Part shown: piece by piece, positions 1 to 29,172 of the stretch
How positions within the stretch are numbered: position 1 is the first letter of the stretch
How the letters are laid out: each line of letters starts with the position of its first letter
Origin: Ginsengibacter sp.
GTDB lineage: Bacteria; Bacteroidota; Bacteroidia; Chitinophagales; Chitinophagaceae
Direction of reading: 5' to 3'
NCBI GenBank assembly: GCA_040003385.1
Contig: JBDUCQ010000001.1
Span: 11,811 to 75,810, forward strand
Length of the DNA stretch: 64,000 nt
Program-made: the position numbers and the translations under genes
Notes under the pieces: generated by a model
What the model was told of the DNA's origin: nothing
The model's input: the letters and a program-made list of their open reading frames with translations, nothing else
Databases searched by the model: none

Positions 1-1050
1 GGCTTTGATAAAGAACAAATGCTGATCATAAATAATGCCGGACGAGGAATAAACAACAATGCTTTTAAAGAATCATTGTCAAGTATTCCGGGTGTGAAAA
101 AAGTTGCGGCGGCCGACGGAATGCTAAGCGGACAAAACTGGACTACCAGCCTTCGTAGGCGTGGCTCACAAGATGCACAACTGGTAAATTTCCTGGATGT
201 TGATTATGACTACCTGGACGTTATGGGTATACCGATAAAAGAAGGAAGGGGATTTTCACAACAATTCATGGGAGATACCCTCACAAAAGGAATACCGGGT
301 CCCACAGAACAGGTCGTTGGTAGTGTGATCCTTAATGAAACAGCAGTTAAAGTATTAGGGATACCCGCTCCCGCAATCGGGCAACAGCTTGTTTGGTCGC
401 GTGATGCGGATACCACTTACTATATCAATATCGTAGGGGTAACAAAAGATTTTCACTTTACTTCTCTTCGCGATGAGATCAAGCCATTTGCTTTCGTTGT
501 TAATCCAGCAAGAACAAGTCTCCTGGCCGTTAAGTTGTCAGGTAAAAATATTCGCAATACGTTAGCCCAGGTAGAATCCAAATGGCAAACGAGTTCCGCA
601 GGTAAGCCATTTGACTACTATTTTTTAGATGAAAGCATTGATAAGCTTTATAAATCAGAACAGAATTTTAAAAGCTTATTTTCTTATTTCACCGTCATCG
701 CATTAATCATTGCCTGTCTTGGATTATTTGGTCTTGCTGCTTTTACGGCAGAGCAGCGTACAAAAGAAATCGGTATTAGAAAAGTGCTGGGCGCTACCGT
801 TTCAAACATTGTTGCCATGCTATCGAAAGATTTTCTAAAACTGGTAGCAATTGCCGGATTAATCGCTTTCCCAATTGCCTGGTTCGTCATGAATAAATGG
901 TTACAGGACTTTTCATATAGAGTACATATCGATTTGTCTGTTTTTGCAATTGCCGGAATAGCAGCTTTAGTGATCGCATTATTTACCGTGAGCTTCCAGG
1001 CAATAAAGGCAGGAATTGCGAACCCGGTGAAGTCGTTGAGAACTGAATAA
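1..1050 (+). CDS. MacB/FtsX-family ABC transporter permease, array copy 1 (5'-truncated by the window edge)
   Basis: The frame is open from base 1 (GFDKEQMLII, the array's G(F/Y)xK motif), so the ORF-track start at 19 is internal. Has EQRTKEIGIRKVLGA and C-terminal ANPVKSLRTE. Confidence 0.93.
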   Translation, partial: GFDKEQMLIINNAGRGINNNAFKESLSSIPGVKKVAAADGMLSGQNWTTSLRRRGSQDAQLVNFLDVDYDYLDVMGIPIKEGRGFSQQFMGDTLTKGIPGPTEQVVGSVILNETAVKVLGIPAPAIGQQLVWSRDADTTYYINIVGVTKDFHFTSLRDEIKPFAFVVNPARTSLLAVKLSGKNIRNTLAQVESKWQTSSAGKPFDYYFLDESIDKLYKSEQNFKSLFSYFTVIALIIACLGLFGLAAFTAEQRTKEIGIRKVLGATVSNIVAMLSKDFLKLVAIAGLIAFPIAWFVMNKWLQDFSYRVHIDLSVFAIAGIAALVIALFTVSFQAIKAGIANPVKSLRTE

Positions 1051-1054
1051 ACCA

Positions 1055-1100
1055 ATTTGGAGATTTGGTGATTTGAAAATTTGAAAATGAGGTATCAGGC
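1055..1100. repeat. Spacer 1: four 8-nt tandem units (ATTTGGAG/ATTTGGTG/ATTTGAAA/ATTTGAAA) followed by GAGGTATCAGGC
   Basis: Read directly between the stop at 1050 and the ATG at 1101. Confidence 0.8.
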
Positions 1101-3545
1101 ATGCTAAAAAATTATTTCAATATTGCATTCAGAAATTTTTTACATAGAAAAGTTTTTTCATTCATCAATATTATTGGACTGGGAATAGGCATCAGCGCAT
1201 CACTCGTTATTTTCTTAATCGTTGATTATGACCTGACCTTCGATAAATTCCACAAGGATGGTGACCGGATTTTCCGGGTAGTATCTGATTTTAATTTTAG
1301 TGGAAATGATGTCCATAGCTCTGGCGTTTCTTCACCCATGGGGACAACTGTTTACAAAGAACTCGCCGGTATTGAATTCGCCGCAGCTTTTCGCACTGCG
1401 AATGAAACGAAAGTGTCGATCCCCGTTGAAAATAAAGACAGGCCTGTTGTGTTTAAAAAAGAGAAACACATTGTTTATGCAGATCAAAATTATTTCCGGC
1501 TCATCCAATATACCTGGATTACCGGCTCACCATCTACATCTTTGAAAGTTCCGTACCAGGTGGTACTCACTGCTTCAAAGGCAGCATTTTATTTTCCGGC
1601 TATCCCTGCTTTACAGGTTATAGGGAGGGAGATCATTTTTGATGATTCGGTAAGGGCCACTGTTTCAGGAATTGTTAAGGACATTGAACAAAATACTGAC
1701 TTTACTTTCACCACTTTTATTTCCAGGGCAACACTCGAAAGCACATCGTTAAAGCCGGATGACTGGGATCAATGGGACAACACGAACTCCGCGTCGCAAC
1801 TCATGATCAAATTATCAAAAGGCACCAGCCGGGCTCAGATCGTAAGCCGTGTGAACACAATCTATAAGAAATATAGAAAAGATGATCCTGAAGATCATTC
1901 TAAAACAGCGTATAGCCTTCAACCCTTAGCCACAATTCATTTCGATGAGCGGTATGATAATTTTGATCAGCGCCTTGCACATAAACCGACCATGTACGGA
2001 CTCCTTGCTGTGGCTGCATTTTTATTGATACTGGGGTGTATTAATTTTATTAACCTTACCACTGCTCAGGCATCCCAGCGCGCCAAAGAGATCGGCATCA
2101 GGAAAACGATGGGAAGCTCCAAAAGGCAGCTGGTATTCCAGTTCCTCGGTGAAACATTTTTCCTCACCCTTGTTTCTACCCTGTTGTCCCTTGCCTTAAC
2201 GCCATTGCTGCTTAAGGCATTTGCAGATTTCATTCCTGAAGGATTACATTTTCATCTGTCCCAACCTGGTCTACTTATTTTTCTTTCGGTTCTCACCATC
2301 ATTGTTACATTGCTGGCCGGTTTTTATCCAGCCCTTGTGCTTTCTTCTTATAAACCAGTTGCTGTATTGAAAAACCAGCTGGGAAAATCAACAAAAACCC
2401 GCAGTGCATGGTTCCGTAAATCGCTGACAGTTTCTCAATTTGTGATAGCACAGGTTTTTATTATTGCCACAATCCTGGTGAGTAAACAAATCCGCTTTTC
2501 TTTAAATATGGATTTAGGATTTAAAAAAGATGCGGTGGTTTATTTTTCAACCAATTATTATGATACTTCAAAAAACAGCAGGCTGGTATTACTTCAGAAA
2601 CTAAAAGCCATACCCGGGATACAAATGGTAAGCATGGCTTATAATCCTCCTTCATCAAATTCACAATGGACAAGTACCACAACATTCAATGATGGAAAAA
2701 AAGACATCGAGACCGATGTGCAGGTATTGTTGGCAGATACAAATTATGTAAAACTTTTCGGGTTGAAATTGCTTGCCGGTAATGATCTGCCATTCAGTGA
2801 TACCCCCAATAGCGTATTGATCAATGAAGCTTATGCCAATATACTTGGGTTTCATAACCCCCAGCACGCGATAGGAAAACAGCTCAGGTGGAATCAAAAG
2901 GAAATCCCGATCGTTGGAGTGCTCCGCAACTTTCACCAGAGATCTCTGCATGAAATGATAAAACCATTACTGATTGCTAATTCAGGAAATACTCTACGAA
3001 CATTCAACATGTTGCTACAGTCACAGGATCCGGCTGGAACAGTCTGGAAAGGGGCAATTGATAAAATCAATAATGCGTACAACGAAGTGTATCCTGAAGC
3101 AGATATAGAATTGAATTTCCTCGACAAGACGCTGGCTAAATATTATGAAGGAGAACAACACATTTCCGGACTCCTGCTTTGGGCAACTGTTCTGGCAATT
3201 TTTATCAGCTGCCTGGGTTTATTAGGATTAGTCATGTATATCACCAATCAAAAAACAAAAGAAATAGGGATACGGAAAGTTATTGGTGCCACCATTTCAC
3301 AGATCATCCTGCTGCTGTCAAAAGATTTTTTAAAACTAATATTTATCGCATTCCTTGTGGCCTTACCGGTTGCATGGTGGGGTGCCCATACCTGGCTTCA
3401 GAATTTCGCTTATAAAACTCCGATGAGCTGGTGGGTATACATCGCAGGCGGATTGGTAATGCTATTGATGGCTTTGATAATATTGATTGCCAGGACATTC
3501 AGGGCTGCGTCGGCAAACCCGGTTGAGTCGCTTAGAACGGAGTGA
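1101..3545 (+). CDS. MacB/FtsX-family ABC permease, copy 2 (814 aa)
   Basis: MLKNYFNIAFRN start, two periplasmic plus FtsX-like TM repeats, RAKEIGIRKTMG and KTKEIGIRKVIG motifs, ends ANPVESLRTE. Confidence 0.93.
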   Translation: MLKNYFNIAFRNFLHRKVFSFINIIGLGIGISASLVIFLIVDYDLTFDKFHKDGDRIFRVVSDFNFSGNDVHSSGVSSPMGTTVYKELAGIEFAAAFRTANETKVSIPVENKDRPVVFKKEKHIVYADQNYFRLIQYTWITGSPSTSLKVPYQVVLTASKAAFYFPAIPALQVIGREIIFDDSVRATVSGIVKDIEQNTDFTFTTFISRATLESTSLKPDDWDQWDNTNSASQLMIKLSKGTSRAQIVSRVNTIYKKYRKDDPEDHSKTAYSLQPLATIHFDERYDNFDQRLAHKPTMYGLLAVAAFLLILGCINFINLTTAQASQRAKEIGIRKTMGSSKRQLVFQFLGETFFLTLVSTLLSLALTPLLLKAFADFIPEGLHFHLSQPGLLIFLSVLTIIVTLLAGFYPALVLSSYKPVAVLKNQLGKSTKTRSAWFRKSLTVSQFVIAQVFIIATILVSKQIRFSLNMDLGFKKDAVVYFSTNYYDTSKNSRLVLLQKLKAIPGIQMVSMAYNPPSSNSQWTSTTTFNDGKKDIETDVQVLLADTNYVKLFGLKLLAGNDLPFSDTPNSVLINEAYANILGFHNPQHAIGKQLRWNQKEIPIVGVLRNFHQRSLHEMIKPLLIANSGNTLRTFNMLLQSQDPAGTVWKGAIDKINNAYNEVYPEADIELNFLDKTLAKYYEGEQHISGLLLWATVLAIFISCLGLLGLVMYITNQKTKEIGIRKVIGATISQIILLLSKDFLKLIFIAFLVALPVAWWGAHTWLQNFAYKTPMSWWVYIAGGLVMLLMALIILIARTFRAASANPVESLRTE

Positions 3546-3628
3546 TATGACTAGGTATATAGAGAATTCGAATATAAAAAGTACCCTGGGTAAGTAGAGT
3601 AACTAATGAATTAAATAAAATAATTGAC

Positions 3629-6028
3629 ATGATAAGGAACTTTTTCAAAACTGCGATCAGGAATTTATTGAGAAATAAAACATATACAACCATTAACATC
3701 CTGGGGCTCGCACTTGGATTATCTGTCTGCCTCATTATTTTCGCTATCATCAGCTTCGAAACCGGATTTGATAAATTTCACCATAAAAAAGACCGGATAT
3801 ACCGTGTGCTTACTGAGTTCCATGATGTTACCGGTGTAAATACAAGTGCGGGTGTTCCTTTCCCATTGCCACAAGCCATCAAAGCTGAATATCCGCAGCT
3901 TGAAAAAGTAACTTCTGTTTTTTCAAACGGGAATGACCAGATCATTATTTTGGATGATAAAGACAACCTTCAAAATAAATTTAAAGAAGAGACAGGCGTT
4001 TTTTTTACAGACCCATCGTTCTTCGAGATCTTCGACTTTCCATGGATAACCGGCACCCCATCATCACTCAATGAACCTAATAATGCCGCTCTGACAAAAT
4101 CGACTGCAATCAAATATTTCGGTGACTGGAAAAAGGCGATTGGAAAAACGATCCGGCGGAATAATAAACAGGACCTTAAAATTTCGGGTATCATCCAGGA
4201 CCCGCCTGCGAATACAGATTTCCAACTGAAGATTGTTGTCTCTTTCAAAACAATGAAAAATCCTACTGATGATTGGGGTTCCGTTTCCAGCTCCATGGGC
4301 TGTTATATTCTCCTTCCACCGGGCCTAACTGCTAAAAAATTCAATTCTCAGTTACCGGCATTTGTAAAAAAATATAAAAAGCCAGACCAGGTTAATGATG
4401 CGCAAGTGATAGGCCCGTTAAGTGAAGTGCACTTTAACAGTAAGGTGAGTAATTTCCTGGGCAGAACGATTAGTTGGGAACTTATCAGGACATTGATTTT
4501 TATTGCTTTTTTTATCCTTATTATCGCGTGTGTGAATTTTATCAACCTGTCTACAGCACAGGCAGTGAACCGGGCTAAAGAAGTCGGCATCAGGAAAGTT
4601 CTTGGAAGTAAAAAAGAGCAACTTCGCATTCAATTTCTTACCGAAACAACTCTGATCGTATTGGCTTCAGTAGCGATTGCTTTGGTCATCACAGTCGTAA
4701 CAATTCCGTACATTAAAAACCTGCTGAAACTACCGCTGTCAAATAATATATTTTCCAATCCTCTGATCGTTTTGTTTTTGATCATCATCATTCCCTTGGT
4801 GGTATTGTTGTCAGGCTTCTACCCTTCTGTTGTATTGTCCAGGTTCAATCCCGTGAATGCGCTAAAAAGTAAATCATTCGCCAACGCATCAAAAGGAATA
4901 ACGTTGAGAAAGGGACTTGTGGTGGTGCAGTTTGTAATCGCCCAGGCACTCATAATCGGCACCATAGTGATTGTTTTGCAAATGAATTATTTCAATTCAA
5001 AACCAATGGGCTTTGATAAAGAAGCCATCATCACCATTCCATTTCCAACGGACAGCGCCAGCCTTGCCAAACTTGATTTTTTAAAAAATAAATTAAGCGA
5101 ACAAAAGGGAATTGAAAAATTCAGCCTTGGTTTTGCCAGCCCGGCGCAAATCGGCAATTGGTATTCTAACTTCAAATTTGACCACGCAGCAAAGGAAACC
5201 GACTTCGGTGCCAACATGAAATGGGGGGATGAAAATTATCTCAGCACTTTCGGATTACAGCTGATAGCCGGGCATAATATCCCAAAAAGTGATACCACCA
5301 CCGGGTTTATCATCAATGAAACCCTGTTAAAAATGCTGGGGATGACTGATCCTGCCAGTGCGCTTAACAAAGAGATCAACATGTGGGATGGAAAAATCAT
5401 AGCCAACATCATTGGAGTGGTTAAAGATTTTCATTCTGCTTCCCTGCAACAACCTTTGCAACCCATTCTCATTGCAAGCAACAAAGAGGTGTATAATATT
5501 GCGGCAATCAAGCTCAGGCCACTGCAGGTCCGTGAACAGATCAAAATTCTCGAGCAGGTATGGACTTCCATTTACCCCGAATATGTTTTTGAATATGAGT
5601 TCATGGATAAAAAAATTGCATCATTCTATAATAATGAAAACAAATTATCCGGGCTGTACAAAATTTTTGCAGCGATCGCCATTTTCCTGAGCTGCCTCGG
5701 TTTGTATGGACTTGCCTCCTTCATGGCTGTACAACGCATCAAAGAAGTAGGGATCAGAAAGGTGTTGGGTGCATCGGTTAAAAGCGTCGTGTATTTATTT
5801 TCAAGGGAATTTATTACACTCATTTCAATCGCCTTCATTGTGGCGAGTGCAATAGCTTATTATTTTATGAAACAATGGCTGCAGGAATATACGTACCGGA
5901 TAGAAATTTCCTGGTGGATATTCTTATCAGCCGGACTTTTATCATTGTTCATCGCCATATTAACCGTTAGTTCGCAGGCCATCAAAGCGGCGGTAGCGAA
6001 CCCGGTAAAATCATTGAGGAGCGAGTGA
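3629..6028 (+). CDS. MacB/FtsX-family ABC permease, copy 3 (799 aa)
   Basis: Same architecture; INFINLSTAQ...RAKEVGIRKVLG equivalent; ends ANPVKSLRSE. Confidence 0.93.
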   Translation: MIRNFFKTAIRNLLRNKTYTTINILGLALGLSVCLIIFAIISFETGFDKFHHKKDRIYRVLTEFHDVTGVNTSAGVPFPLPQAIKAEYPQLEKVTSVFSNGNDQIIILDDKDNLQNKFKEETGVFFTDPSFFEIFDFPWITGTPSSLNEPNNAALTKSTAIKYFGDWKKAIGKTIRRNNKQDLKISGIIQDPPANTDFQLKIVVSFKTMKNPTDDWGSVSSSMGCYILLPPGLTAKKFNSQLPAFVKKYKKPDQVNDAQVIGPLSEVHFNSKVSNFLGRTISWELIRTLIFIAFFILIIACVNFINLSTAQAVNRAKEVGIRKVLGSKKEQLRIQFLTETTLIVLASVAIALVITVVTIPYIKNLLKLPLSNNIFSNPLIVLFLIIIIPLVVLLSGFYPSVVLSRFNPVNALKSKSFANASKGITLRKGLVVVQFVIAQALIIGTIVIVLQMNYFNSKPMGFDKEAIITIPFPTDSASLAKLDFLKNKLSEQKGIEKFSLGFASPAQIGNWYSNFKFDHAAKETDFGANMKWGDENYLSTFGLQLIAGHNIPKSDTTTGFIINETLLKMLGMTDPASALNKEINMWDGKIIANIIGVVKDFHSASLQQPLQPILIASNKEVYNIAAIKLRPLQVREQIKILEQVWTSIYPEYVFEYEFMDKKIASFYNNENKLSGLYKIFAAIAIFLSCLGLYGLASFMAVQRIKEVGIRKVLGASVKSVVYLFSREFITLISIAFIVASAIAYYFMKQWLQEYTYRIEISWWIFLSAGLLSLFIAILTVSSQAIKAAVANPVKSLRSE

Positions 6029-6180: not shown

Positions 6181-6190
6181 ATAATCTTAT

Positions 6191-8718: not shown

Positions 8719-8721
8719 GCT

Positions 8722-11335: not shown

Positions 11336-11340
11336 ACATC

Positions 11341-18934: not shown

Positions 18935-18959
18935 TTAAAAATGATAGGTAAAGAAAAAC

Positions 18960-19036: not shown

Positions 19037-19040
19037 ATAT

Positions 19041-21555: not shown

Positions 21556-21564
21556 CAAAAACCA

Positions 21565-23976
21565 GTGCTAAAAAACTATATCACCATCGCCTTAAGAAAT
21601 CTTAAGAAAAATAAGGGCTTCTCTTTTATTAATATTTTCGGATTGGCGATTGGCTTAACCTGTTTCATGCTGATCGCAGTATTTGTTTATGATGAGTTGA
21701 GTTATGACCAATATCCTGCAGAGGCAAAAAACATTTACAGGGTAAGTTTAGCTGTAACCGGAAATGGGAATGTGGCTGAATATCCCAACGTAGACGCCGC
21801 AGTAGGTGAAGGTATTAAAAATGCATTTCCTGAAGTGAGGGATGTGGCAAGACTTTCTCCTGCAATTGATTTTATAAAATATGGTGACAAGCAATTCAAG
21901 GAAGAGCATCTTGCTTTTGCCGATTCAAATTTTCTGCAACTATTTACAATCCCCCTGGTAGAAGGAAATGCAGCCAGTGCGCTTATCCAACCCAACAGCA
22001 TAGTGGTCTCAAAAGCGATGGCTAAAAAATATTTCGGAAATGAGGAACCCTTAGGCAAATCTTTGGCTATAGGTATCCGCAAAGTTCCTTACAAAGTAAC
22101 CGGGGTCATAGAAAAAGTCCATGGCAATTCACATTTTCATTTTGATGCGTTTTTAAGTTTGTCAACATTCCATATTACCAATGCCACCTGGAGTAACCTG
22201 GGATATTTTACATACCTGCTTCTCAATAATCATTCTGATCCTAAAAAATTAGAAACTGCACTTCCAGCCCTGGTTGCGAAATACGTAGTTCCTGAAGTTC
22301 AGCATGACATGGGCGTAAGCCTTGCAGAAGCACAGAAATCAGTAAATACTTTCAGGTTTTTTTTACAGCCATTGACCAGTATCCATTTATACTCGGATAC
22401 CAAATTCGAGCTGGAACCAAATGGTGACATACAATATGTGTATATTTTTTCCGCACTGGCTGTTTTTATTCTATTGCTCGCATGTGTAAACTTTACCAAC
22501 CTTTCTTCTGCGCGTGCCGTAAAACGTTCAAAGGAAGTAGGTATCAGGAAAGTAATGGGTTCTGTAAAAAAGCAACTGGTGTTCCAGTTTCTTACCGAAT
22601 CAGTTTTGATCACAGGCTTTGCTATGCTGTCTGCATATATTTTGATATTCCTTTTGTTGCCATATTTCAACAACCTTTCAAATAAAAACATTGCTTTCAC
22701 ATTTTTTCTCAGTTACCGAAGTATCCTGGTGATGATAACTTTAAGTTTATTTGTGGGATTACTGGCTGGTACTTATCCGGCCTTCTTCTTATCATCATTC
22801 AATACCATAAAAGTTTTGAAGGGTACCTCCACAGCGCTGGGGTCACAGAAAAAAACGTTGCGCAGCGGGCTGATCATATTCCAGTTCCTGGTTTCCACGG
22901 CATTGATCATTGCAACAATTGTTGTTTACCAGCAACTGCATTTCATGCAAAATAAAAAATTGGGATATGATACGGAGCAGGTCTTGTTTCTTCCGGATGC
23001 AAGATTACTCGGGAAAAACCAGGTGGCTTTTGAACAGCAGTTATTACAGGACAACCGGGTAGTTTCTGCCAGCATCTCACGGTCTATTCCGGGAAGCATT
23101 TTTATGGATGGTACGGAAATCTATCCCAAAAATGAGAATTCCAACGGAACAGAAATTCATTCAAATATTTACCATGTAGATTATGATTATATCCGCACAT
23201 TAAACATTCGGGTGATCCAGGGAAGAAATTTTTCAAAAGATTTTTCCACAGATTCTGCAGGGGTGATCATCAATGAAGCAGCAGTGCGTGAATTGGGTTG
23301 GAGCCAAACAAATCCCATTGGCAGGTCAATCATACGTTCAGGGCAGCACGAGTTTAAAGTGATTGGCGTAGTTGCTGATTTCAATTACGCATCTGTAAAA
23401 CAAAAAGTGGCGCCAATGATGCTTTTACTTGGAAATAATTTTGGAGGCTTGATCGTCAAAATGAAAACTGCAGATGTAAACGGTTTCCTTACCAATCTTA
23501 AAAAACAATGGGACAGCTTTCAGCCTGGTGGCCCCCTGGAATACAATTTTATTGACGAAAGTTTTGCCGCCTTGTACAAGAGCGAACAACGTACCCAACA
23601 GATATTCACATGTTTTGCTGCGATCGCCATCATCATCGCCAGCCTTGGACTTTTCGGCCTTTCTGCATTTGTGATAGAACAACGCACAAAGGAAATAGGC
23701 ATACGGAAAGTATTGGGTGCCACTGTTAACCAGGTATTGTTATTGGTTTCCAGGGAATTTTTAACCCTTGTATGTATTGCATTTGTGATTTCTATTCCCC
23801 TTACATGGTGGGCAATGAACGCATGGCTGCAGGATTTTGCTTACAGGATAAATATGAGTGTATGGATGTTTGCAGTGGCAGGTATAACAGCAATTTTGAT
23901 TGCCTTGTTCACCATCAGCTTCCAGGCAATCAAGGCCGCAGTTGCGAACCCGGTGAAGTCGTTGAGAAGCGAGTAA
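21565..23976 (+). CDS. MacB/FtsX-family ABC permease, copy 10 (803 aa, GTG start)
   Basis: GTG CTA AAA AAC TAT gives the family's MLKNY start; ends ANPVKSLRSE. Confidence 0.92.
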   Translation: MLKNYITIALRNLKKNKGFSFINIFGLAIGLTCFMLIAVFVYDELSYDQYPAEAKNIYRVSLAVTGNGNVAEYPNVDAAVGEGIKNAFPEVRDVARLSPAIDFIKYGDKQFKEEHLAFADSNFLQLFTIPLVEGNAASALIQPNSIVVSKAMAKKYFGNEEPLGKSLAIGIRKVPYKVTGVIEKVHGNSHFHFDAFLSLSTFHITNATWSNLGYFTYLLLNNHSDPKKLETALPALVAKYVVPEVQHDMGVSLAEAQKSVNTFRFFLQPLTSIHLYSDTKFELEPNGDIQYVYIFSALAVFILLLACVNFTNLSSARAVKRSKEVGIRKVMGSVKKQLVFQFLTESVLITGFAMLSAYILIFLLLPYFNNLSNKNIAFTFFLSYRSILVMITLSLFVGLLAGTYPAFFLSSFNTIKVLKGTSTALGSQKKTLRSGLIIFQFLVSTALIIATIVVYQQLHFMQNKKLGYDTEQVLFLPDARLLGKNQVAFEQQLLQDNRVVSASISRSIPGSIFMDGTEIYPKNENSNGTEIHSNIYHVDYDYIRTLNIRVIQGRNFSKDFSTDSAGVIINEAAVRELGWSQTNPIGRSIIRSGQHEFKVIGVVADFNYASVKQKVAPMMLLLGNNFGGLIVKMKTADVNGFLTNLKKQWDSFQPGGPLEYNFIDESFAALYKSEQRTQQIFTCFAAIAIIIASLGLFGLSAFVIEQRTKEIGIRKVLGATVNQVLLLVSREFLTLVCIAFVISIPLTWWAMNAWLQDFAYRINMSVWMFAVAGITAILIALFTISFQAIKAAVANPVKSLRSE

Positions 23977-24050
23977 GGTAGGTATCAGGTATCAGGCATC
24001 AGGTATCAGGTATGAGGAATAATTAAAAATTAATAATTAATAATTGATAC
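23977..24050. repeat. Spacer 10: AGGTATC AGGTATC AGGCATC AGGTATC AGGTATG AGG plus TAATTAA heptads
   Basis: Read directly. Confidence 0.85.
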
Positions 24051-24056
24051 AGAAAA

Positions 24057-26534
24057 ATGTTTAAAAATTATTTAAAAATCGCATTCCGGAATATCAAATC
24101 CAAAAGAGGATATACGCTGATGAATATACTTGGGCTTGCTATGGGAATTACTTGCTGCCTGCTGATATTTCAATACGTGGCGTATGAAAAAAGCTATGAC
24201 AATTTTCATGCAAAGGCCAGCCAGGTTGTGAGGCTGAGACTGGACTTTCATGATCAGGGTAAGCTTACCATGCAATCTGCTGCCGTTTACCCGGGAATCG
24301 CACCCATGATGAAAAAAGAATTCCCTGAGGTTGAAAATTATTGCAGGCTCATTGATACAAGAATATCCTGGCTAAAAAATGAGATGGTGCAAAATAATAT
24401 CATCCTTGCAAATGATGACCGTCACATACAGGCTATTGAGAATAGTGGTTATTACGCTGATCAGTCTTTTTTAGCAATCTTCAATGTTCCTTTTGTAAAA
24501 GGCAATCCATCCACTTCTTTGGACGGACCAAACAAAATCATTTTATCAGAACGGACAGCTGAAAAATATTTTGGGAACACCGATCCTCTTGAACAAAAAA
24601 TAACAGTAAGAGAAGGCGGCAATACATTTCAATATGTGGTAACAGGTGTTTTTAAAAACTATCCAGCCAATTCACACCTTGCTTTCGATTATATCATTTC
24701 TTACCGGACATTCGATAACCTGGTGACCGGATTAGGTGCGCCTGCCTGGGCCAATCCGGAAACGAGCCTGAGCTGGTACGATTACTATGCCTATTTATTA
24801 TTGAAGCCGGGAACCGATCCCGCGAAATTTGAAACAAAGGTTCATTCTTTTGCCAACCGGTATCTTAATAAGAACTATAGCCAGGCACACAATAACAAAC
24901 AGGACCTCTTCACCATCGGGCTCAAGGATATACATCTTCAATCTCATTATAATGAAGAAGCAGGAGTAAATGGCGATAACAAAACTGTTTCATTCCTTTT
25001 CCTGATCTCATTTGTTATCATCATAATTGCCTGGGTCAATTACACCAACCTGGCTACTGCCCGGTCACTTGAAAGAGCTAAGGAAGTAGGTGTGCGAAAA
25101 GTGTTGGGTGCCTTGCGCATGAATTTAGTCGGGCAATTTTTAGCAGAAAGCCTTCTGTTGAATTTAATATCACTCCTTGTTGCACTGATACTGGCATTTG
25201 CTCTTACACCTTCTTTCAACCAGTTAATGGGGAGAGAAAAAACAGTTCTAGCATTACCATTGTCTTACTGGCTTGGCTTTATCTCTTTGTTTTTCGGAGG
25301 TGCCCTGATTTCAGGATTTTATCCTGCGTTAATACTTTCAGGATATCAACCCATGTCTGTATTAAAAGGATTGTTTAAAAATTCAATTGGCGGCATGCTG
25401 ATTAGGAAAAGCCTGGTGGTCGTCCAATTTACCATCTCGATCATTTTGATTGCCGGAACTATCATCGTCTACCGGCAGGTGGGATTTATGAGAAACCAGG
25501 ACCTTGGAGCAAATATCAACCAGACTCTTGTGTTGAATGGTTCAAGCGGTAACCAGGATTCATCGTATGGGTCTTCTTTTCTGCCATTCAAAAATGACAT
25601 TCTTCAGGTGAACGGGGTCAAAAACATTACCTCTTCGTCGAGTGTGATGGGGCGGGAAATATATCTCACAAGCACTGCGTACCTGGTGGGTGCAAAAGAA
25701 AAAAATACCCTCACGTTCTATTTTATGTACGTAGATGAAGATTTTCTTTCTGCCTATGGAATGAATTTTAAAGCCGGCCGCAATTTCTCTAAGGAAAATA
25801 ATGCTGATAAAAAATCAGTGGTATTGAATGAAGAAGCGGTCAAATTATTTGGCATTGACAAGCCTGAAAAATCTTTGGATAAATTGATCTACAACTTTCA
25901 CGATTCACTCAGGATCATAGGGGTGGTTACAAATTACCACCAATTGGGGCTAAACAAAGCCTTATTGCCCATTATATTTATTCCGAAACCAACTGTCAAT
26001 AATTTTTATTCGGTTAAATTCCAAACCCCGGTTACTCCGAAAATGATATCGGAAATAGAGAAGACCTGGAACCGTTATTTTCCCTCCAACCCTTTTAATT
26101 ATTTTTTTCTCGATGATGCTTTCAATGCCCAGTATAAAAGCGATGTGCAATTCGGGAAAGTTTTTGGCCTGTTTTCTTTGCTTGCCATCATCATCGCATG
26201 CTTTGGCCTGCTTGGTTTGTCTGCCTACAACGTATTGCAAAGAACGAGGGAAATTGGTATACGCAAAACTTTAGGTGCTTCTGTCAATCACCTGATGTTC
26301 ATTCTATCCAAAGATTTTCTGGCATTGGTGGTTACAGGATTTATTGTGGCCATACCTGTAACATGGCTGGTAATGAACCGTTGGCTGAATGCATTTGCTT
26401 ATCGCATCAACATAAGCTGGTGGATTTTTGCCATTGCAGGAATACTGGCATTTGTAATTGCAATGTTGACTGTAGGATACCAGGCCCTCAAGGCTGCATT
26501 GGCAAACCCGGTAAAAAGTTTGAGAGCAGAATAG
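24057..26534 (+). CDS. MacB/FtsX-family ABC permease, copy 11 (825 aa)
   Basis: Same architecture; most similar to copy 7; ends ANPVKSLRAE. Confidence 0.93.
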   Translation: MFKNYLKIAFRNIKSKRGYTLMNILGLAMGITCCLLIFQYVAYEKSYDNFHAKASQVVRLRLDFHDQGKLTMQSAAVYPGIAPMMKKEFPEVENYCRLIDTRISWLKNEMVQNNIILANDDRHIQAIENSGYYADQSFLAIFNVPFVKGNPSTSLDGPNKIILSERTAEKYFGNTDPLEQKITVREGGNTFQYVVTGVFKNYPANSHLAFDYIISYRTFDNLVTGLGAPAWANPETSLSWYDYYAYLLLKPGTDPAKFETKVHSFANRYLNKNYSQAHNNKQDLFTIGLKDIHLQSHYNEEAGVNGDNKTVSFLFLISFVIIIIAWVNYTNLATARSLERAKEVGVRKVLGALRMNLVGQFLAESLLLNLISLLVALILAFALTPSFNQLMGREKTVLALPLSYWLGFISLFFGGALISGFYPALILSGYQPMSVLKGLFKNSIGGMLIRKSLVVVQFTISIILIAGTIIVYRQVGFMRNQDLGANINQTLVLNGSSGNQDSSYGSSFLPFKNDILQVNGVKNITSSSSVMGREIYLTSTAYLVGAKEKNTLTFYFMYVDEDFLSAYGMNFKAGRNFSKENNADKKSVVLNEEAVKLFGIDKPEKSLDKLIYNFHDSLRIIGVVTNYHQLGLNKALLPIIFIPKPTVNNFYSVKFQTPVTPKMISEIEKTWNRYFPSNPFNYFFLDDAFNAQYKSDVQFGKVFGLFSLLAIIIACFGLLGLSAYNVLQRTREIGIRKTLGASVNHLMFILSKDFLALVVTGFIVAIPVTWLVMNRWLNAFAYRINISWWIFAIAGILAFVIAMLTVGYQALKAALANPVKSLRAE

Positions 26535-26610
26535 CCCCCGCCTGGATGACATAGTCGGGCAGGCTTCGGCAAGTTCAGGATGGAGGTGTTAGGCGTTAGG
26601 AAATTAGAAA
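26535..26610. repeat. Spacer 11: composite REP (27-bp hairpin 26537-26563 plus CTTCGGCAAGTTCAGGA) followed by heptad G-arm
   Basis: Two mismatches over 53 nt against 13696-13748. Confidence 0.85.
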
Positions 26611-26665
26611 CTAAAATGTTCAATTACTTGAATTATAAATAATCAATATTTAATAATTATTTATC

Positions 26666-29092
26666 ATGTTAAAAAATTATTTTAAAGTCGCATTGCGCAA
26701 TCTTTGGAAGAACAAAGGATTCTCTGCCCTCAACATTGTGGGCTTGTCCATAGGCATCGCTACATGCCTGCTGATCACCTTATATGTTACTGACGAACTC
26801 AGTTATGATAAGTTCAATAATAAGGCGGACCGGATCTACCGGGTAAATGTTGACCTAAAGTTTGGCGGTGCCGAACAAAAATTTGCTGTGGCTTCTGCCC
26901 CCCTCGCCTTTACCCTTGTAAAGGATTTTCCACAGGTTGAAAATGCAGTACGTTTTCGGGGTTATGGCAGCTCAGTTGTAAAAAAAGGGGAACAAAACAT
27001 AAGAGAGACGCGTATTATTTTTGCCGACTCCACCTTGTTTTCGGTATTCACGATCCCCATGGTTGCAGGCGATCCTAAAACCGCCCTTACCGAACCCAAT
27101 TCAGTAGTGATCAATCAATCAACTGCGAAAAAATATTTTGGTAGCTCCAATGCGGTCGGCCAGGTGCTCCGGTTTGATAACCGAACAGATTATAAAGTAA
27201 CCGGGGTGATACAAGACCTGCCCGGGAATTCGCATTTTAATTTTGACTTTTTTATTTCAATGTCGGGTGCCGATGAAAGCCGCAATGGTGTGTGGGCAAG
27301 TTTTAATTTCAATACATACCTCCTTTTACGCAAAGGCACAGATCCAAAAGGGGTCATTTCAAAAATGGAGGAAACGAATAATAAATATCTCTGGCCACAG
27401 GTACAGCAAATGATGAAGGTTGACCCTGCAGAATTTAAAAAGGCCGGTAATTACATGAACCTGTCTTTGATCCCACTCACAGATATTCATTTGCATTCCG
27501 ACCGGGTAGCTGAGTTGGCCCCAAACAATGACATACAGGTAGTGTATATCTTTTCGCTCATTGCCATATTTATCCTTGTCATTGCCTGTATCAATTTTAT
27601 GAACCTTTCTACCGCACGTTCTTCTAACAGGGCTAAAGAGGTAGGCATCCGCAAGGTTTTAGGTACACGCCGGTCAAACCTGGTTGGCCAGTTCTTAACT
27701 GAATCTGTATTAATGAGCTTACTTTCATTCTTGATGGCTGTGATCATAGCGGTCTTATTAATTCCCTTCTTCAACCAGCTTGCATCAAAAAAGCTCACCT
27801 TGTCTCCTTTTGATCACCCGGTTTTAGTGCCGGTGTTACTGGTCTTCGCTGTGTTGGTTGGCCTGCTTGCCGGATGTTATCCTGCTTTTTATTTATCAGC
27901 ATTTCAACCGATCCTGGTATTGAAAGGGAAACTTGCCAGTGGATTCAGGCATAGCTATTTCCGAAGCACACTTGTCGTTTTCCAGTTCGCGATTTCGATC
28001 GCATTGATCATTGGAACGGTAGTGATTTACAACCAGCTTACCTATATTCAAAATAAGAAATTAGGATTTAATAAGGACCAGGTACTTATTGTTCAGAATG
28101 CCTATGTTTTAGATAAGAAGGCAGAAACTTTTAAAAATGAGGCGCTAAAATTTAATGACATACGGTCTGCCTCTGTTTCCGGTTACCTGCCCGTTCCATC
28201 AAGCCGCAGCGACCAGCCTTTTTTTCCTGAGGGAGTCATTGACCAAAAGAAGGCAGTGGCCATGCAGCAATGGACTGTTGATGTGGATTATATTAAAACG
28301 ATGGGAATGGAAATGAAAGAGGGAAGGAATTTCTCAAAGGACCTTCTTACTGACAGCAGCTCCATTATCATCAATGAAACTGCGGCAAAGCTTTTTGGTT
28401 TTACAGATCCTCTTAATAAAAAGATTACATCCTTCACAGATATCAACAATGGAGGGAACAAGCTCAATTACCAGATCATTGGCGTCGTTAAAAATTTTCA
28501 CTATGCATCACTCAGGGAAAACATCGGGGCATTGTGTATGTTCCTCGGGAAATCGACGGATGCCATCAGTTTCAGGATTAACGCAGGCAATGCCTCAGCG
28601 ACAGTAAAAAATATTGAGTCACTCTGGAAAAAAATGGTACCCTCCGAGCCATTCACCTATTCATTCATGAATGAAGATTTTAACAGGATGTATGAAGCCG
28701 AACAAAGGGTGGGGAAAATATTTATTTCTTTTGCAATTCTTGCAATCCTGATTGCCTGCCTCGGCCTGTTTGGGTTGGCCACCTATGCTGCAGAACAACG
28801 CACCAAAGAGATTGGGATCAGGAAGGTTCTTGGAGCAACTGTTTCGAATATTGTTCAAATGCTGTCAAAAGATTTTTTGAAACTGGTGGTGATTGCTGCC
28901 CTGATTGCATTCCCGGTTTCCTGGTGGGCCATGAACAAATGGCTGCAGGACTTTGCTTACAGGATCACGATCAGCTGGTGGATATTTGTTGGAGCAGCCT
29001 TCATTGCAGTGCTAATCGCATTATTTACAATAAGCTTTAAAGCCATACGTGCGGCGATATCCAACCCGGTGAAGTCGCTGAGAGCGGAATGA
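26666..29092 (+). CDS. MacB/FtsX-family ABC permease, copy 12 (808 aa)
   Basis: Same architecture; INFMNLSTARSSNRAKEVGIRKVLG; ends SNPVKSLRAE. Confidence 0.93.
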   Translation: MLKNYFKVALRNLWKNKGFSALNIVGLSIGIATCLLITLYVTDELSYDKFNNKADRIYRVNVDLKFGGAEQKFAVASAPLAFTLVKDFPQVENAVRFRGYGSSVVKKGEQNIRETRIIFADSTLFSVFTIPMVAGDPKTALTEPNSVVINQSTAKKYFGSSNAVGQVLRFDNRTDYKVTGVIQDLPGNSHFNFDFFISMSGADESRNGVWASFNFNTYLLLRKGTDPKGVISKMEETNNKYLWPQVQQMMKVDPAEFKKAGNYMNLSLIPLTDIHLHSDRVAELAPNNDIQVVYIFSLIAIFILVIACINFMNLSTARSSNRAKEVGIRKVLGTRRSNLVGQFLTESVLMSLLSFLMAVIIAVLLIPFFNQLASKKLTLSPFDHPVLVPVLLVFAVLVGLLAGCYPAFYLSAFQPILVLKGKLASGFRHSYFRSTLVVFQFAISIALIIGTVVIYNQLTYIQNKKLGFNKDQVLIVQNAYVLDKKAETFKNEALKFNDIRSASVSGYLPVPSSRSDQPFFPEGVIDQKKAVAMQQWTVDVDYIKTMGMEMKEGRNFSKDLLTDSSSIIINETAAKLFGFTDPLNKKITSFTDINNGGNKLNYQIIGVVKNFHYASLRENIGALCMFLGKSTDAISFRINAGNASATVKNIESLWKKMVPSEPFTYSFMNEDFNRMYEAEQRVGKIFISFAILAILIACLGLFGLATYAAEQRTKEIGIRKVLGATVSNIVQMLSKDFLKLVVIAALIAFPVSWWAMNKWLQDFAYRITISWWIFVGAAFIAVLIALFTISFKAIRAAISNPVKSLRAE

Positions 29093-29172
29093 AGGTGTGA
29101 GGATTTAGGGGTTTGTAGTTAGGAGTTAACATTTTAAGACAACCAACGAGTCACCATATACGAAAAGTATCG

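What the first reader, a model, noticed from the sequence alone, without database searches (positions are those of the whole stretch)
1..29130. Cassette-like array of at least 12 diverged MacB-type permeases with conserved DNA junctions
Seen: 12 head-to-tail ~2.4-kb permease genes. Their periplasmic domains look strongly diverged by eye, yet the DNA at the junctions is shared: an invariant octamer near every 3' end, near-identical 3' tips in non-adjacent copies, and spacers built from one heptad family. Established: tandem MacB/FtsX paralogues occur in Bacteroidota. Inference: the array behaves like a cassette library (gene plus structured junction) that is expanded, shuffled or homogenised by recombination at the junctions, giving many substrate-recognition modules for one pump. 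This is the best candidate for an undescribed system here. No recombinase gene is visible in the window.
Basis: partly seen in the sequence, partly recalled or inferred. Interest (0 to 1): 0.85.

Follow-up and report, generated by a model that had tools for sequence, protein, structure and literature searches.

The report
Old permease gene array, repeat-filled spacers
This is a long tandem array of anciently diverged ADOP-like (duplicated MacB/FtsX-type) ABC permease genes of a kind already known in Bacteroidota; its shared junction DNA comes from slippage-prone 7-base repeats, small dispersed hairpins and short-range homogenisation of the gene tips, not from a new cassette-shuffling system.

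Summary
Window 1-29092 holds 11 complete permease genes and one left-truncated one. They are head-to-tail, ~800 aa each (MacB_PCD-FtsX-MacB_PCD-FtsX) and only 27-55% identical. AACCCGGT lies near every 3' end. Nine of 11 spacers carry GGTATGA-type heptads, and four fold into long hairpins.

- Most paralogues have orthologues at 50-84% identity in other Chitinophagaceae genera, so they are old, stable lineages.
- No integrase and no attC-like sites were found.
- Junction sequences do not travel with their genes.
- One relative packs the same kind of array with 9-21-nt spacers.

The octamer encodes Asn-Pro-Val of the family-wide tail ANPVKSLRTE. Its codon invariance, with AGA for Arg, exceeds amino-acid and codon-bias expectation.

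Other genomes fix different synonymous codons at these positions (CGA, AGG, CGG). In 42 arrays, within-genome synonymous identity is raised mainly at the gene ends. This points to short-tract homogenisation at junctions.

Heptad repeats are about 7-fold enriched per kb at junctions of this family across Bacteroidota. Each genome has its own repeat families. In one near-identical strain pair, the only indel in 6.6 kb lies in a junction repeat.

Verdict: a known kind of array with undescribed junction dynamics. Interest is moderate to low.

The parts
1..1050 (+). G1: C-terminal 349 aa of a permease gene that runs off the left edge
   Evidence: FtsX and a sub-threshold MacB_PCD match (25.4 bits, cutoff 27). 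Tail ANPVKSLRTE with AAC CCG ... AGA.
1101..29092 (+). G2-G12: eleven complete ~2.4-kb duplicated MacB_PCD-FtsX permease genes (1101-3545, 3629-6028, 6191-8587, 8722-11193, 11341-13701, 14045-16489, 16568-18934, 19041-21449, 21565-23976, 24057-26534, 26666-29092)
   Evidence: ADOP (TIGR03434) is the best NCBIfam hit for G2-G11 at 237-322 bits, below the cutoff of 622; G12 was scanned with Pfam only.
1021..1028 (+). First of 12 copies of AACCCGGT (others at 3516, 5999, 8558, 11164, 13672, 16460, 18905, 21420, 23947, 26505, 29063). These are codons Asn-Pro-Va(l) of the C-terminal motif.
6029..6190 (+). Spacer IG3-4: left heptad arm (GTATCAG/GTATGAG) directly after the stop, AT-rich AATAAT heptads in the centre, complementary arm ending 14 nt before the ATG
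   Evidence: MFE -47.1 kcal/mol, z -6.7. Inverted repeat I4/I15. 83% identical to IG4-5.
8588..8721 (+). Spacer IG4-5: heptad-armed hairpin whose first heptad overlaps the stop codon; the stem ends 5 nt before the ATG
   Evidence: MFE -39.7, z -5.8.
11194..11340 (+). Spacer IG5-6: hairpin with GGAGTTA/GGAATTA arms and matching TAATTCC/TAAAACC arms
   Evidence: z -3.5.
13702..14044 (+). Spacer IG6-7: 47-nt REP-like hairpin element (13702-13748), then heptads, a long AT-rich centre and complementary heptads
26535..26581 (+). Second copy (45/47 identical) of the REP-like element CCCCCGCCTGRATGACATAGTCGGGCAGGCTTCGGCAAGT, directly after the TAG stop of G11
   Evidence: A related copy of the hairpin core lies at 38724-38751 on the minus strand, outside the array: 15/16 identity over its first 16 nt plus the shared CGCCTG...CAGG stem motif.
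16490..16567 (+). Spacer IG7-8: left-arm heptads only (GGTGTCA...) plus AATAAT heptads. IG9-10 (21450-21564), IG10-11 (23977-24056), IG11-12 (26582-26665) and the start of 29093-29320 have the same layout. IG8-9 (18935-19040) has only the right arm.
1051..1100 (+). Spacer IG1-2: period-8 (A/G)ATTTG(A/G)A repeats, a family also found after permease stops in relatives L001, L003 and L205
29321..30361 (+). DUF4097 / LiaG-like 'toastrack' protein, a recurrent companion of such arrays
   Evidence: Homologues in 9 relatives' loci, 8 of them with arrays.
30443..31105 (+). Stand-alone ABC ATPase (220 aa), the only one next to the array
   Evidence: Homologues up to 82% identical in 29 of 90 relatives' loci. 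It lies adjacent to the arrays in L001, L003, L207 and L209.
31118..32554 (+). Outer-membrane efflux protein (TolC-like OEP)
44691..45293 (-). REP-associated tyrosine transposase (RAYT), 15.6 kb from the array. It is not shown to act on the array.
   Evidence: NF047646, 94 bits (cutoff 80). GC-rich repeats lie at 44376-44670.

Best explanation
The region is a tandem array of anciently duplicated ADOP-like permease genes. Each protein is a single-chain pseudo-dimer of the MacB/FtsX type VII ABC fold, with two periplasmic domains and eight TM helices. The organism is a Chitinophagaceae bacterium.

Shown: each paralogue is an old lineage with its own orthologues in other genera. Divergence is concentrated in the periplasmic domains. 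The array sits next to one stand-alone ABC ATPase, a TolC-like outer-membrane factor and a toastrack protein. Inferred: the many permeases share that one ATPase.

The shared junction DNA has three ordinary sources.

1. The octamer is the coding sequence of the conserved cytoplasmic tail A-N-P-V-K-S-L-R-T-E. Its synonymous sites are kept uniform within a genome. The most likely cause is short-tract ectopic gene conversion or unequal exchange seeded by the only long near-identical stretch the paralogues share. Selection on particular bases is possible as well.

2. The spacers are built from hypermutable hepta- and octanucleotide simple-sequence repeats that grow and shrink by replication slippage. 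These repeats are genome-specific in sequence. They are often laid out as a left arm starting at the stop codon and a complementary right arm ending a few bases before the next start.

3. Small REP-like hairpins have been dropped into two spacers.

Inferred function of the hairpin spacers: RNA-level punctuation of a polycistronic transcript. Folding brings the stop and the next start together, or creates a processing or stabilising stem, so a 115-160-nt spacer behaves like the 9-21-nt spacers of relatives. Repeat slippage then modulates expression of individual permeases. Whole-gene gain, loss and reordering over long times occur by homologous exchange at the conserved gene tips, not by a dedicated recombinase.
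For: Family and architecture.

Ancient paralogy: paralogues are 27-55% identical, while orthologues of G2, G3, G4, G5, G6, G7, G10 and G12 reach 50-84% in Ferruginibacter, Segetibacter, Ginsengibacter and even Mucilaginibacter. The closest pair, G7/G11, shows no mosaic pattern.

Tip homogenisation.
- In the window, invariant codons occur only at tail positions N, P and R among 92 conserved columns.
- Other genomes fix other codons for the tail Arg: CGA 7/9 in L209 (background 0.09), AGG 4/6 in L084 (background 0.04), CGG 4/6 in L071, AGA 8/8 in L210. Val is GTA 9/9 in L209 and GTG 6/6 in L079.
- In 42 loci, excess within-genome synonymous identity is +0.14 to +0.16 at the 3' end and +0.12 at the 5' end, against +0.01 to +0.05 in the body, with non-overlapping bootstrap intervals.
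- G12 orthologues switch between TCG, AGT and AAT at the tail Ser/Asn position.
- In the window, tail identity correlates with downstream-spacer similarity.

Simple-sequence repeats.
- Period 7 is the commonest tandem-repeat period in 84 related loci.
- 26% of permease-permease spacers carry heptad repeats (1.71 per kb), against 5% of other spacers (0.25 per kb).
- Repeat families are genome-specific.
- L205 and L206, from two samples, differ over 6.6 kb by 2 substitutions and a single 8-nt indel, which lies inside a junction repeat. L002 and L208 (~93% identical) differ about two-fold in heptad number in a junction spacer.

Hairpins. Window spacers reach z -6.7. The same design with other heptads occurs in L210: four spacers 70-79% alike, three with z between -4.1 and -5.3 and one with z -1.7. 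In three of the four (a, c, d) the stem begins 0-8 nt after the stop and ends 3-17 nt before the ATG; the outer stem of spacer b (z -1.7) begins at the stop and ends 14 nt before the ATG.

REP-like element.

Literature. ADOP clusters of ten paralogues in a Bacteroidota genome and 28-33 copies per Dyadobacter genome are published (PMC3914696, PMC11573002). Heptanucleotides are the commonest long simple-sequence repeats in bacteria, and intergenic heptamer repeats are described in PMC4679880.
Against: In this window the invariant bases are not one contiguous tract. AACCCGGT and AGA are separated by variable Val, Lys, Ser and Leu codons, and the Ser codon class (TCN or AGY) roughly follows the gene phylogeny. 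That pattern looks more like selection on particular nucleotides than recent conversion.

Family-wide there is also a between-genome preference for CCG (61% against 31-41% expected) and AGA (42% against 19%) at these positions. The cause of that preference is unknown.

Codon bias at the 5' end could reflect selection for weak mRNA structure rather than recombination.

Only 4-5 of the 12 spacers have both arms. Strong folding is not much commoner at permease junctions (27%) than at other same-strand spacers (20%).

No expression data, no close (over 90% identical) relative of this array and no read data were available. The RNA-level role and the slippage-driven expression change are therefore inferences.

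Gene calling for the control spacers was crude (longest ORFs).
Confidence: 0.68

Rival explanations
1. Cassette system. Gene-plus-junction units are mobilised, shuffled or amplified by site-specific recombination at a conserved core (AACCCGGT and/or the hairpin spacer), analogous to integron cassettes with attC sites.
For: A conserved short core lies near every 3' end, beyond codon expectation. Structured spacers follow some genes. Order is not collinear among relatives. GTTAGGC-like heptads occur in the spacers. The left flank of the array is outside the window, so an upstream recombinase cannot be excluded.
Against: No integrase, invertase or serine recombinase was found among window ORFs of 150 aa or more, and none is annotated in the flanks of relatives' arrays. 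Those start or end with ATPase, MFP, sigma54-type regulator or His-kinase genes. No attC-like inverse-core/core pair occurs in any spacer. The core is not conserved between genomes: AATCCT, AACCCT and AACCCC variants occur, and only 35% of 217 genes carry AAC CCG. Spacers do not accompany orthologues. Arrays with 9-21-nt spacers exist. The genes are 2.4 kb and belong to old orthologous lineages.
Confidence: 0.06
2. Mobile hairpin elements. The heptad-armed spacers are MITE- or REP-like selfish elements that spread between junctions, possibly through the RAYT at 44.7 kb. They are tolerated because they fold out of the way and have no role for the array.
For: Spacers within an array are much more alike than the genes (83% here, 70-79% in L210), yet unrelated between genomes. 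This is the usual pattern for REP or MITE families. A true REP-like hairpin sits in two junctions, with a related copy outside the array. A RAYT is present. A heptad-armed hairpin also occurs between two unrelated convergent genes at 50959-51126. GGTATSA tandems, often as inverted pairs, occur in many unrelated contigs.
Against: No target-site duplications or defined termini are evident; the arms are variable-number tandem repeats. In this window the GGTATGA family is confined to the array. Heptad repeats are about 7-fold enriched per kb at junctions of this gene family compared with other spacers in the same loci, which a generic mobile element would not show. The RAYT's own flanking repeats differ in sequence from the heptad arms.
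Confidence: 0.14
3. Nucleotide-level functional signal. AACCCGG...AGA at the 3' end, and the G-rich heptads that follow, are a recognition signal in the RNA or DNA (for a nuclease, an RNA-binding regulator or a termination or pausing context). Selection, not recombination, maintains it.
For: The invariant positions are non-contiguous and flanked by freely varying synonymous sites. CCG and AGA are preferred at these positions across 217 genes from many genera, even after allowing for codon context.
Against: Other genomes fix different codons at the same positions (CGA, AGG, CGG for Arg; CCC or CCT for Pro), which a conserved signal would not allow. No Rfam family matches. No consistent pairing partner was found by eye.
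Confidence: 0.12

Closest known systems
ADOP (acidobacterial duplicated orphan permease, TIGR03434) gene clusters, for example the 42-kb cluster of ten paralogues in Psychroflexus torquis (PMC3914696) and 28-33 copies per Dyadobacter genome (PMC11573002)
   Same: Same duplicated MacB_PCD-FtsX-MacB_PCD-FtsX architecture of ~800 aa. ADOP is the best NCBIfam hit for the 10 genes scanned. Many paralogues are clustered head to tail in a Bacteroidota genome, and the substrate is unknown.
   Different: Scores of 237-322 bits are far below the family cutoff of 622. The genes are not 'orphan': an ABC ATPase and an outer-membrane factor lie directly downstream. The papers read here mention neither the junction repeats nor the homogenised tips.
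MacAB-TolC tripartite efflux pump (MacB, type VII ABC transporter)
   Same: FtsX-type TM domain with a large periplasmic MacB core domain. The conserved C-terminal ...P-V-x-x-L-R-x-E tail is present. A TolC-like gene is adjacent. The tail's role as a coupling helix in MacB is from my own knowledge and was not tested.
   Different: No fused nucleotide-binding domain. The permease is internally duplicated (one chain in place of a homodimer). No membrane-fusion protein gene is in the window. There are twelve alternative permeases rather than one.
Integron gene-cassette arrays (intI, attI, attC)
   Same: Same-orientation genes, each followed by an imperfect palindrome whose structure is more conserved than its sequence.
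   Different: No integrase. No RYYYAAC/GTTRRRY core pair. The genes are 2.4 kb members of one old family. The hairpins are absent from many junctions and from whole arrays in relatives.
Intergenic heptanucleotide simple-sequence repeats (cyanobacterial STRR, TAACTGA repeats of Beggiatoaceae/Cyanobacteria/Bacteroidetes; PMC4679880, citing Mrazek 2007)
   Same: Tandem 7-nt units in intergenic DNA next to start or stop codons. The units carry stop codons in all three frames and the families are genome-specific. The suggested role is post-transcriptional.
   Different: The unit sequences differ. Here the repeats are paired with complementary arms that bracket the spacer, and they are concentrated at the junctions of one gene family.
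REP elements and REP-associated tyrosine transposases (RAYT)
   Same: A RAYT passes its NCBIfam cutoff and is flanked by GC-rich inverted repeats. A small GC-rich hairpin is present in three places, two of them array junctions.
   Different: The heptad-armed spacers are much longer, AT-rich and built of tandem units. No link between the RAYT and the array was shown.
Concerted evolution by gene conversion in tandem paralogue families; contingency loci with 7-bp repeats such as the Haemophilus hmw promoters (own knowledge)
   Same: Within-genome homogeneity with between-genome difference at synonymous sites. Repeat copy number varies between strains.
   Different: Homogenisation is limited to about 30-60 nt at the gene ends, while the gene bodies stay 27-55% identical. 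Phase variation is not shown.

Membership tests
ADOP family duplicated permease (TIGR03434) | Architecture of two MacB_PCD and two FtsX domains in one chain of ~800 aa | tested here: met
   Pfam hits with two stretches each. End-to-end alignment to the ADOP profile for most genes.
ADOP family duplicated permease (TIGR03434) | Score at or above the curated cutoff (622.3 bits) | tested here: not met
   237-322 bits for the ten genes scanned.
ADOP family duplicated permease (TIGR03434) | 'Orphan': no adjacent ABC ATPase gene | tested here: not met
   ABC_tran protein at 30443-31105, 1.35 kb after the last permease. The same pairing occurs in relatives.
MacB (macrolide ABC transporter ATP-binding protein/permease) | N-terminal nucleotide-binding domain fused to a 4-TM FtsX permease | tested here: not met
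   No ABC_tran domain in any permease. PRK10535 hits cover only profile positions ~324-648, at 19-58 bits against a cutoff of 966.
MacB (macrolide ABC transporter ATP-binding protein/permease) | Partner membrane-fusion protein and TolC-like outer-membrane factor | tested here: inconclusive
   An OEP gene lies at 31118-32554. No HlyD/MFP gene was found in the window. Relatives have one upstream of the array, and the window's upstream flank is missing.
Integron cassette array | Tyrosine integrase (intI) next to the array | tested here: not met
   None among the window ORFs of 150 aa or more scanned with Pfam or NCBIfam. None in the precomputed Pfam annotation of relatives' flanks. The left flank of the window array was not seen.
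Integron cassette array | attC after each cassette: RYYYAAC ... GTTRRRY inverse-core/core pair 40-130 nt apart | tested here: not met
   No such pair in any spacer on either strand. The spacers contain no RYYYAAC at all. An attC covariance model was not available.
REP/RAYT system | RAYT gene passing its curated model | tested here: met
   NF047646, 94 bits against a cutoff of 80, at 44691-45293 on the minus strand.
REP/RAYT system | The junction elements are REPs of that RAYT (same sequence family as its flanking repeats, dispersed genome-wide) | tested here: inconclusive
   The 47-nt hairpin element is at two junctions, and a related copy of its hairpin core is at 38724-38751, outside the array. 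It shares only GGCAGGCTT with the repeats beside the RAYT. The rest of the genome is not available.
Long simple-sequence repeats (heptanucleotide) | Three or more tandem copies of a 7-nt unit | tested here: met
   TRF period-7 arrays in 9 of 11 spacers.
Long simple-sequence repeats (heptanucleotide) | Copy-number polymorphism between closely related strains | tested here: met
   Met in relatives. The only indel between L205 and L206 lies in a junction repeat, and L002 and L208 differ about two-fold in heptad number. It could not be tested for the window's own organism because no close relative was found.
Shufflon / invertible-segment systems | Inverted recombination sites flanking segments, plus a site-specific recombinase | tested here: not met
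   All 12 genes and all 12 octamers at the gene ends are in the same orientation. No recombinase is adjacent.

The most novel reading that the evidence does not exclude
The hypermutable hepta- and octanucleotide repeats, enriched at the junctions of ADOP-like permease arrays across Bacteroidota, might form a contingency layer. Slippage would change hairpin strength or stop-to-start geometry, and so vary stochastically which of the many alternative permeases is made for a single shared ATPase. Exchange at the homogenised 3' tips would let whole permease genes be gained, lost and reordered without damage. On this reading the array is a cassette-like repertoire run by general recombination and slippage, not by a dedicated recombinase.
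Probability: 0.15. Interest if true: 0.65.

Novelty: new member of a known kind. Interest (0 to 1): 0.35.

Why it matters
Bacteroidota and Acidobacteriota genomes carry dozens of these duplicated permeases, and their substrates and regulation are unknown. This analysis removes the idea of a new recombination machine here. It leaves three concrete, testable properties of the family:

- One ATPase gene beside many old, periplasmically diversified permeases.
- A roughly 7-fold concentration per kb of slippage-prone heptad repeats, often forming stop-to-start hairpins, at their junctions.
- Concerted evolution restricted to the last and first few dozen bases of otherwise deeply diverged paralogues.

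If the repeats tune expression, they would be a way to study how soil Bacteroidota choose among alternative transport modules. If not, the case is a clean example of how conserved gene tips and simple-sequence repeats can mimic 'cassette junctions'.

Tried and rejected
- Exact-protein look-up of G12 found no contig on record. A genome-collection scan with the DUF4097 protein found nothing. No relative closer than 84% (G12) or 76% (G5) exists in the protein collection. Recent rearrangements and repeat polymorphism in this organism therefore could not be examined.
- Rfam at gathering thresholds and tRNA search gave no hits in the window.
- The sigma-70 promoter and intrinsic-terminator scan was uninformative. 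Counts were 1.7-2.2 SD above shuffled sequence (promoter-like 70 vs 51.9 ± 8.3; terminator-like 25 vs 18.3 ± 4.0), no listed site pointed to a junction signal, and Bacteroidota promoters are not covered.
- A 3'-end gene-conversion tract visible as raised overall nucleotide identity was rejected. The tip (0.66) is barely above other TM blocks, and the longest exact run is internal.
- Mosaic or domain-swapped paralogues were rejected. G7/G11 identity is raised uniformly along the gene.
- Integron attC was rejected by pattern search.
- Hairpin formation as a special property of permease junctions was rejected. The fraction with z below -3 is 27% against 20% for other same-strand spacers.
- The heptad family as array-specific was rejected. 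118 of 120 metagenome contigs with GGTATSAGGTATSAGG have no permease nearby.
- L003 against L004 for repeat polymorphism was uninformative because the sequences are identical.
- A conserved 20-mer upstream of permease genes in L001 and L003 (GTTGCGTCGCACTCTTGTAC) is absent from the window.
- By eye I looked for Bacteroidota -33/-7 promoter boxes, sigma54 boxes and a local stem involving AACCCGG. Nothing was consistent.

Full report
WHAT IS THERE

Window 1-29092 contains twelve same-strand ORFs of about 2.4 kb. The first (1-1050) is the C-terminal 349 residues of a gene that runs off the left edge. The five proteins tested with Pfam, including the left fragment, match MacB_PCD and FtsX, and in the full-length proteins each domain occurs twice. 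For the ten genes scanned, the best NCBIfam model is the ADOP family duplicated permease, TIGR03434. Scores are 237-322 bits, far below the 622-bit cutoff. These are ADOP-like members of the MacB/FtsX superfamily, not certified ADOP members.

Directly downstream lie a DUF4097/LiaG-like 'toastrack' protein (29321-30361), a stand-alone ABC ATPase (30443-31105) and a TolC-like outer-membrane factor (31118-32554). The rest of the window is ordinary Bacteroidota housekeeping and glycoside-hydrolase genes, including gldF/gldG. Best protein matches name Ferruginibacter, Segetibacter, Flavisolibacter and Ginsengibacter, so the organism is a member of the Chitinophagaceae.

CHECKING THE OBSERVATION

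The paralogues are only 27-55% identical as proteins. Periplasmic blocks have column identity 0.14-0.34 and TM blocks 0.46-0.58.

AACCCGGT lies 23-30 nt before every one of the 12 stop codons. The window holds 16 copies against 0.94 expected. It encodes Asn-Pro-Va(l) in the invariant tail A/S-N-P-V-K/E-S-L-R-T/S/A-E.

The invariance goes beyond amino-acid constraint.
- Among 92 near-invariant amino-acid columns, only three have invariant or near-invariant codons, and all three are in the tail: Asn AAC 12/12 (background 0.36), Pro CCG 12/12 (0.24) and Arg AGA 11/12 (0.22).
- Other conserved Asn, Pro and Arg columns use mixed codons, and the neighbouring Val, Lys, Ser and Leu codons of the tail vary.
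- Codon-context bias explains part of this but not all. Asn before C is AAC 61% of the time, and Pro before GT is CCG 35% of the time.

The 'near-identical 3' tips' are real. G1/G10 are 88% identical over 60 nt with a 27-nt exact run. They are not exceptional, because internal TM blocks reach 80% identity and a 30-nt exact run.

Nine of 11 permease-permease spacers carry period-7 tandem repeats, against 1 of 18 other intergenic regions of the window. The common layout has four parts:
- the stop codon;
- three to six G-rich heptads (GGTATGA, GGTATCA, GGTGTTA, GGAGTTA);
- AT-rich AATAATN heptads;
- in five spacers, complementary heptads (TCATACC, TGATACC) that end 5-15 nt before the next ATG.

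Four spacers fold much better than shuffled sequence (z -6.7, -5.8, -3.5, -2.1). The others do not. IG3-4 and IG4-5 are 83% identical over 137 nt although the genes around them are 33-36% identical.

A REP-associated tyrosine transposase, which is an HUH enzyme, is encoded at 44691-45293 on the minus strand. It passes its NCBIfam cutoff and is flanked by GC-rich repeats.

IS IT A CASSETTE SYSTEM?

Several tests say no.

1. The paralogues are old, stable lineages. G12 has orthologues at 60-84% identity and G5 at up to 76%. G2, G3, G4, G6, G7 and G10 have orthologues at 50-75% in other genera and even in Mucilaginibacter. All of these values are well above the identity between paralogues. The closest pair, G7/G11 at 55%, is uniformly similar along its length and not mosaic.

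2. No integrase, invertase or serine recombinase was found among the window ORFs tested. The annotated flanks of relatives' arrays carry an ATPase, a membrane-fusion protein, a sigma54-type response regulator, kinases or unrelated genes.

3. No spacer contains an attC-like RYYYAAC...GTTRRRY pair.

4. Junctions do not travel with genes. The spacers after orthologues of G12, G6 and G5 in other genomes are unrelated to those in the window.

5. Structured junctions are dispensable. L209 carries the 76% orthologue of G5. It has at least nine permease genes, and eight of its nine spacers are only 9-21 nt; the array ends at an ATPase gene.

6. The junction sequences are not array-specific. GGTATSAGGTATSAGG occurs in more than 120 metagenome contigs with GC content from 32% to 73%. 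In 118 of 120 there is no permease gene nearby, and the repeats often form inverted pairs. The 47-nt piece shared by the G6 and G11 junctions is a small GC-rich hairpin, with a related copy of its core at 38724-38751 outside the array.

Gene order among relatives is only partly collinear. G10..G12 recurs in L028, L041 and L067. L001 has G12-G6-G3, L010 has G12..G3-G2 and L209 has G4-G12-G5. These comparisons span genera, where such reshuffling is unremarkable.

WHAT THE JUNCTIONS ARE

Three findings emerged.

(a) The 3' tips, and less clearly the 5' starts, evolve in concert within a genome.

In 217 family members from 84 loci, AAC-CCG is the commonest form of the motif but reaches only 35%. 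Individual genomes fix different synonymous codons in otherwise deeply diverged paralogues:
- Tail Arg is AGA in the window (11/12) and in L210 (8/8).
- Tail Arg is CGA in L209 (7/9, background 0.09), AGG in L084 (4/6, background 0.04) and CGG in L071 (4/6).
- Val is GTA 9/9 in L209 and GTG 6/6 in L079.

Over 42 loci, I compared within-genome paralogue pairs below 60% protein identity. Excess synonymous identity over each genome's own codon usage was as follows, with separated bootstrap intervals:
- +0.01 to +0.05 along the gene body;
- +0.12 in the first 12 conserved columns;
- +0.14 to +0.16 in the last 20 conserved columns.

A within-genome against between-genome comparison gives the same ranking. 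In the window, 3'-tip identity correlates with similarity of the downstream spacers after controlling for protein identity (r 0.55, p 2e-4). The 5' starts show no correlation with the upstream spacers.

The simplest reading is short-tract ectopic conversion, or unequal exchange, seeded by the longest near-identical stretch these paralogues share.

There are caveats. In this window the fixed bases are non-contiguous. CCG and AGA are also somewhat preferred between genomes (61% and 42%, against 31-41% and 19% expected). Selection on particular nucleotides is therefore not excluded.

(b) Heptad repeats are a family-wide junction feature, not a peculiarity of this window.

Period 7 is the commonest tandem-repeat period in the 84 related loci. 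Heptad repeats occur in 26% of permease-permease spacers (1.71 per kb) and 18% of permease-other spacers. They occur in only 5% of other spacers (0.25 per kb).

Each genome has its own unit families, shared among its junctions:
- AAAGTAA in L071;
- AATGAC-type in L047;
- AGCTCA-type in L028;
- TGAACAA-type in L002;
- AGCTATT-type in L210.

The repeats are unstable in nature. L205 and L206 come from two samples and differ over 6.6 kb by two substitutions and one 8-nt indel, which lies inside a junction repeat. L002 and L208 are about 93% identical yet differ roughly two-fold in heptad number in a junction spacer.

Heptanucleotides are reported to be the commonest long simple-sequence repeats in bacteria. 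Intergenic heptamer repeats with stop codons in all frames are described in Beggiatoaceae, Cyanobacteria and a few Bacteroidetes (PMC4679880).

(c) The stop-to-start hairpin is a recurrent design.

L210 has four consecutive spacers that are 70-79% alike, built from different heptads. Three of them fold with z between -4.1 and -5.3, and the fourth only weakly (z -1.7). In three of the four (a, c, d) the stem begins 0-8 nt after the stop and ends 3-17 nt before the ATG. Other junctions of the same array are 9-11 nt long.

Strong folding as such is only slightly commoner at permease junctions (27%) than at other same-strand spacers (20%). A heptad-armed hairpin also sits between two unrelated convergent genes at 50959-51126.

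MOST LIKELY MECHANISM

Shown:
- an ancient array of periplasmically diversified permeases sits beside one ATPase gene;
- the spacer repeats are slippage-prone;
- synonymous sites at the gene tips are homogenised within genomes.

Inferred:
- the permeases share the single ATPase, whose homologues lie beside such arrays in 29 of 90 loci;
- the hairpin spacers act at the RNA level, either by bringing stop and next start together or by forming a processing or stabilising stem, so that long spacers behave like the tight spacers of relatives;
- repeat slippage may tune expression of individual permeases;
- whole-gene gain, loss and reordering proceed by general recombination at the conserved tips.

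None of this needs a dedicated recombinase.

COMPARISON WITH WHAT IS KNOWN

Clusters of about ten ADOP paralogues in a Bacteroidota genome, and tens of copies per genome, are published (PMC3914696, PMC11573002). The array itself is therefore a new member of a known kind. The papers I could read did not mention the junction-level properties, namely heptad enrichment and tip-restricted concerted evolution. They are made of known processes: simple-sequence-repeat slippage, gene conversion and REP insertion. Membership tests for integron, shufflon, MacB proper and TIGR03434 proper each fail on at least one defining feature.

VERDICT

The 'undescribed cassette system' is not supported, while homogenisation at the junctions is. 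Interest is moderate to low (0.35).

The most novel reading still open is a contingency-type, slippage-tuned repertoire of permeases for one ATPase. I give it about 15% probability.

Noticed in passing
window 44376-45293: A REP-associated tyrosine transposase gene (44691-45293, minus strand; NF047646, 94 bits, cutoff 80) lies next to GC-rich repeats. These are a 16-nt unit x3.8 at 44398-44454, a perfect 49-nt direct repeat at 44481-44575, and an inverted partner at 44639-44664.
   Followed up: partly
window 50959-51126: A heptad-armed hairpin lies outside the array. Its arms are AACACTC/CTCAATG and TTGAGTG repeats (31 nt, 94% complementary, 98 nt apart), followed by a T-run. It sits between the convergent DinB_2 (50440-50898) and GH3 (51169-53418) genes and looks like a bidirectional terminator built from heptads.
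   Followed up: partly
window 38533-38553, 38692-38751, 44379-44398: GC-rich palindromes (GCCTGCCTGCCGGYAGGCAGGC) are dispersed in AT-rich intergenic DNA. The hairpin at 38724-38751 resembles the core of the element found after G6 and G11.
   Followed up: partly
window 46801-46921: Two copies of the palindrome GGTCCTCGTTACAAAYGAGGACC lie 75 nt apart in an intergenic region.
   Followed up: no
L001 17478, 20103; L003 7080, 15250, 18059, 21285; L061 2464; L065 17897: A conserved ~20-mer, GTTGCGTCGCACTCTTGTAC, lies upstream of many permease genes in some relatives. In L001 and L003 the arrays sit beside a sigma54-type response regulator, a histidine kinase and a membrane-fusion protein. It may be a shared operator or promoter. 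It is absent from the window.
   Followed up: partly
window 1055-1088; L001 12425-12517; L003 9540-9580, 15146-15180; L205 2532-2565, 5070-5103, 7510-7545: Period-8 (A/G)ATTTG(A/G)A repeats lie directly after permease stop codons. Unlike the genome-specific heptads, this family is shared by several Chitinophagaceae genomes.
   Followed up: partly
L085-L204 (metagenome contigs): GGTATCA/GGTATGA heptad tandems occur in contigs with GC content from 32% to 73%. They often form inverted pairs separated by a short loop and are unrelated to permease genes. This may be a widespread repeat type worth its own survey.
   Followed up: partly
window 29321-30361 and 9 relatives' loci: A DUF4097/LiaG-like toastrack protein recurs beside these permease arrays (46-58% identity; 8 of the 9 hit loci hold four or more permeases). 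This hints at a link to envelope-stress sensing.
   Followed up: partly
window 55749-58247; 59222-61714; 63380-63421: A fused Mur-ligase/alanine-racemase ORF (832 aa), gldG-like and gldF genes, and a short GCCACC/CCACCTCCA repeat inside small overlapping ORFs.
   Followed up: no
window 8722-8772: The public gene call for G5 is 806 aa, that is, a start 17 codons downstream. Orthologues support the 823-aa form, so the IG4-5 spacer is taken as 134 nt.
   Followed up: partly
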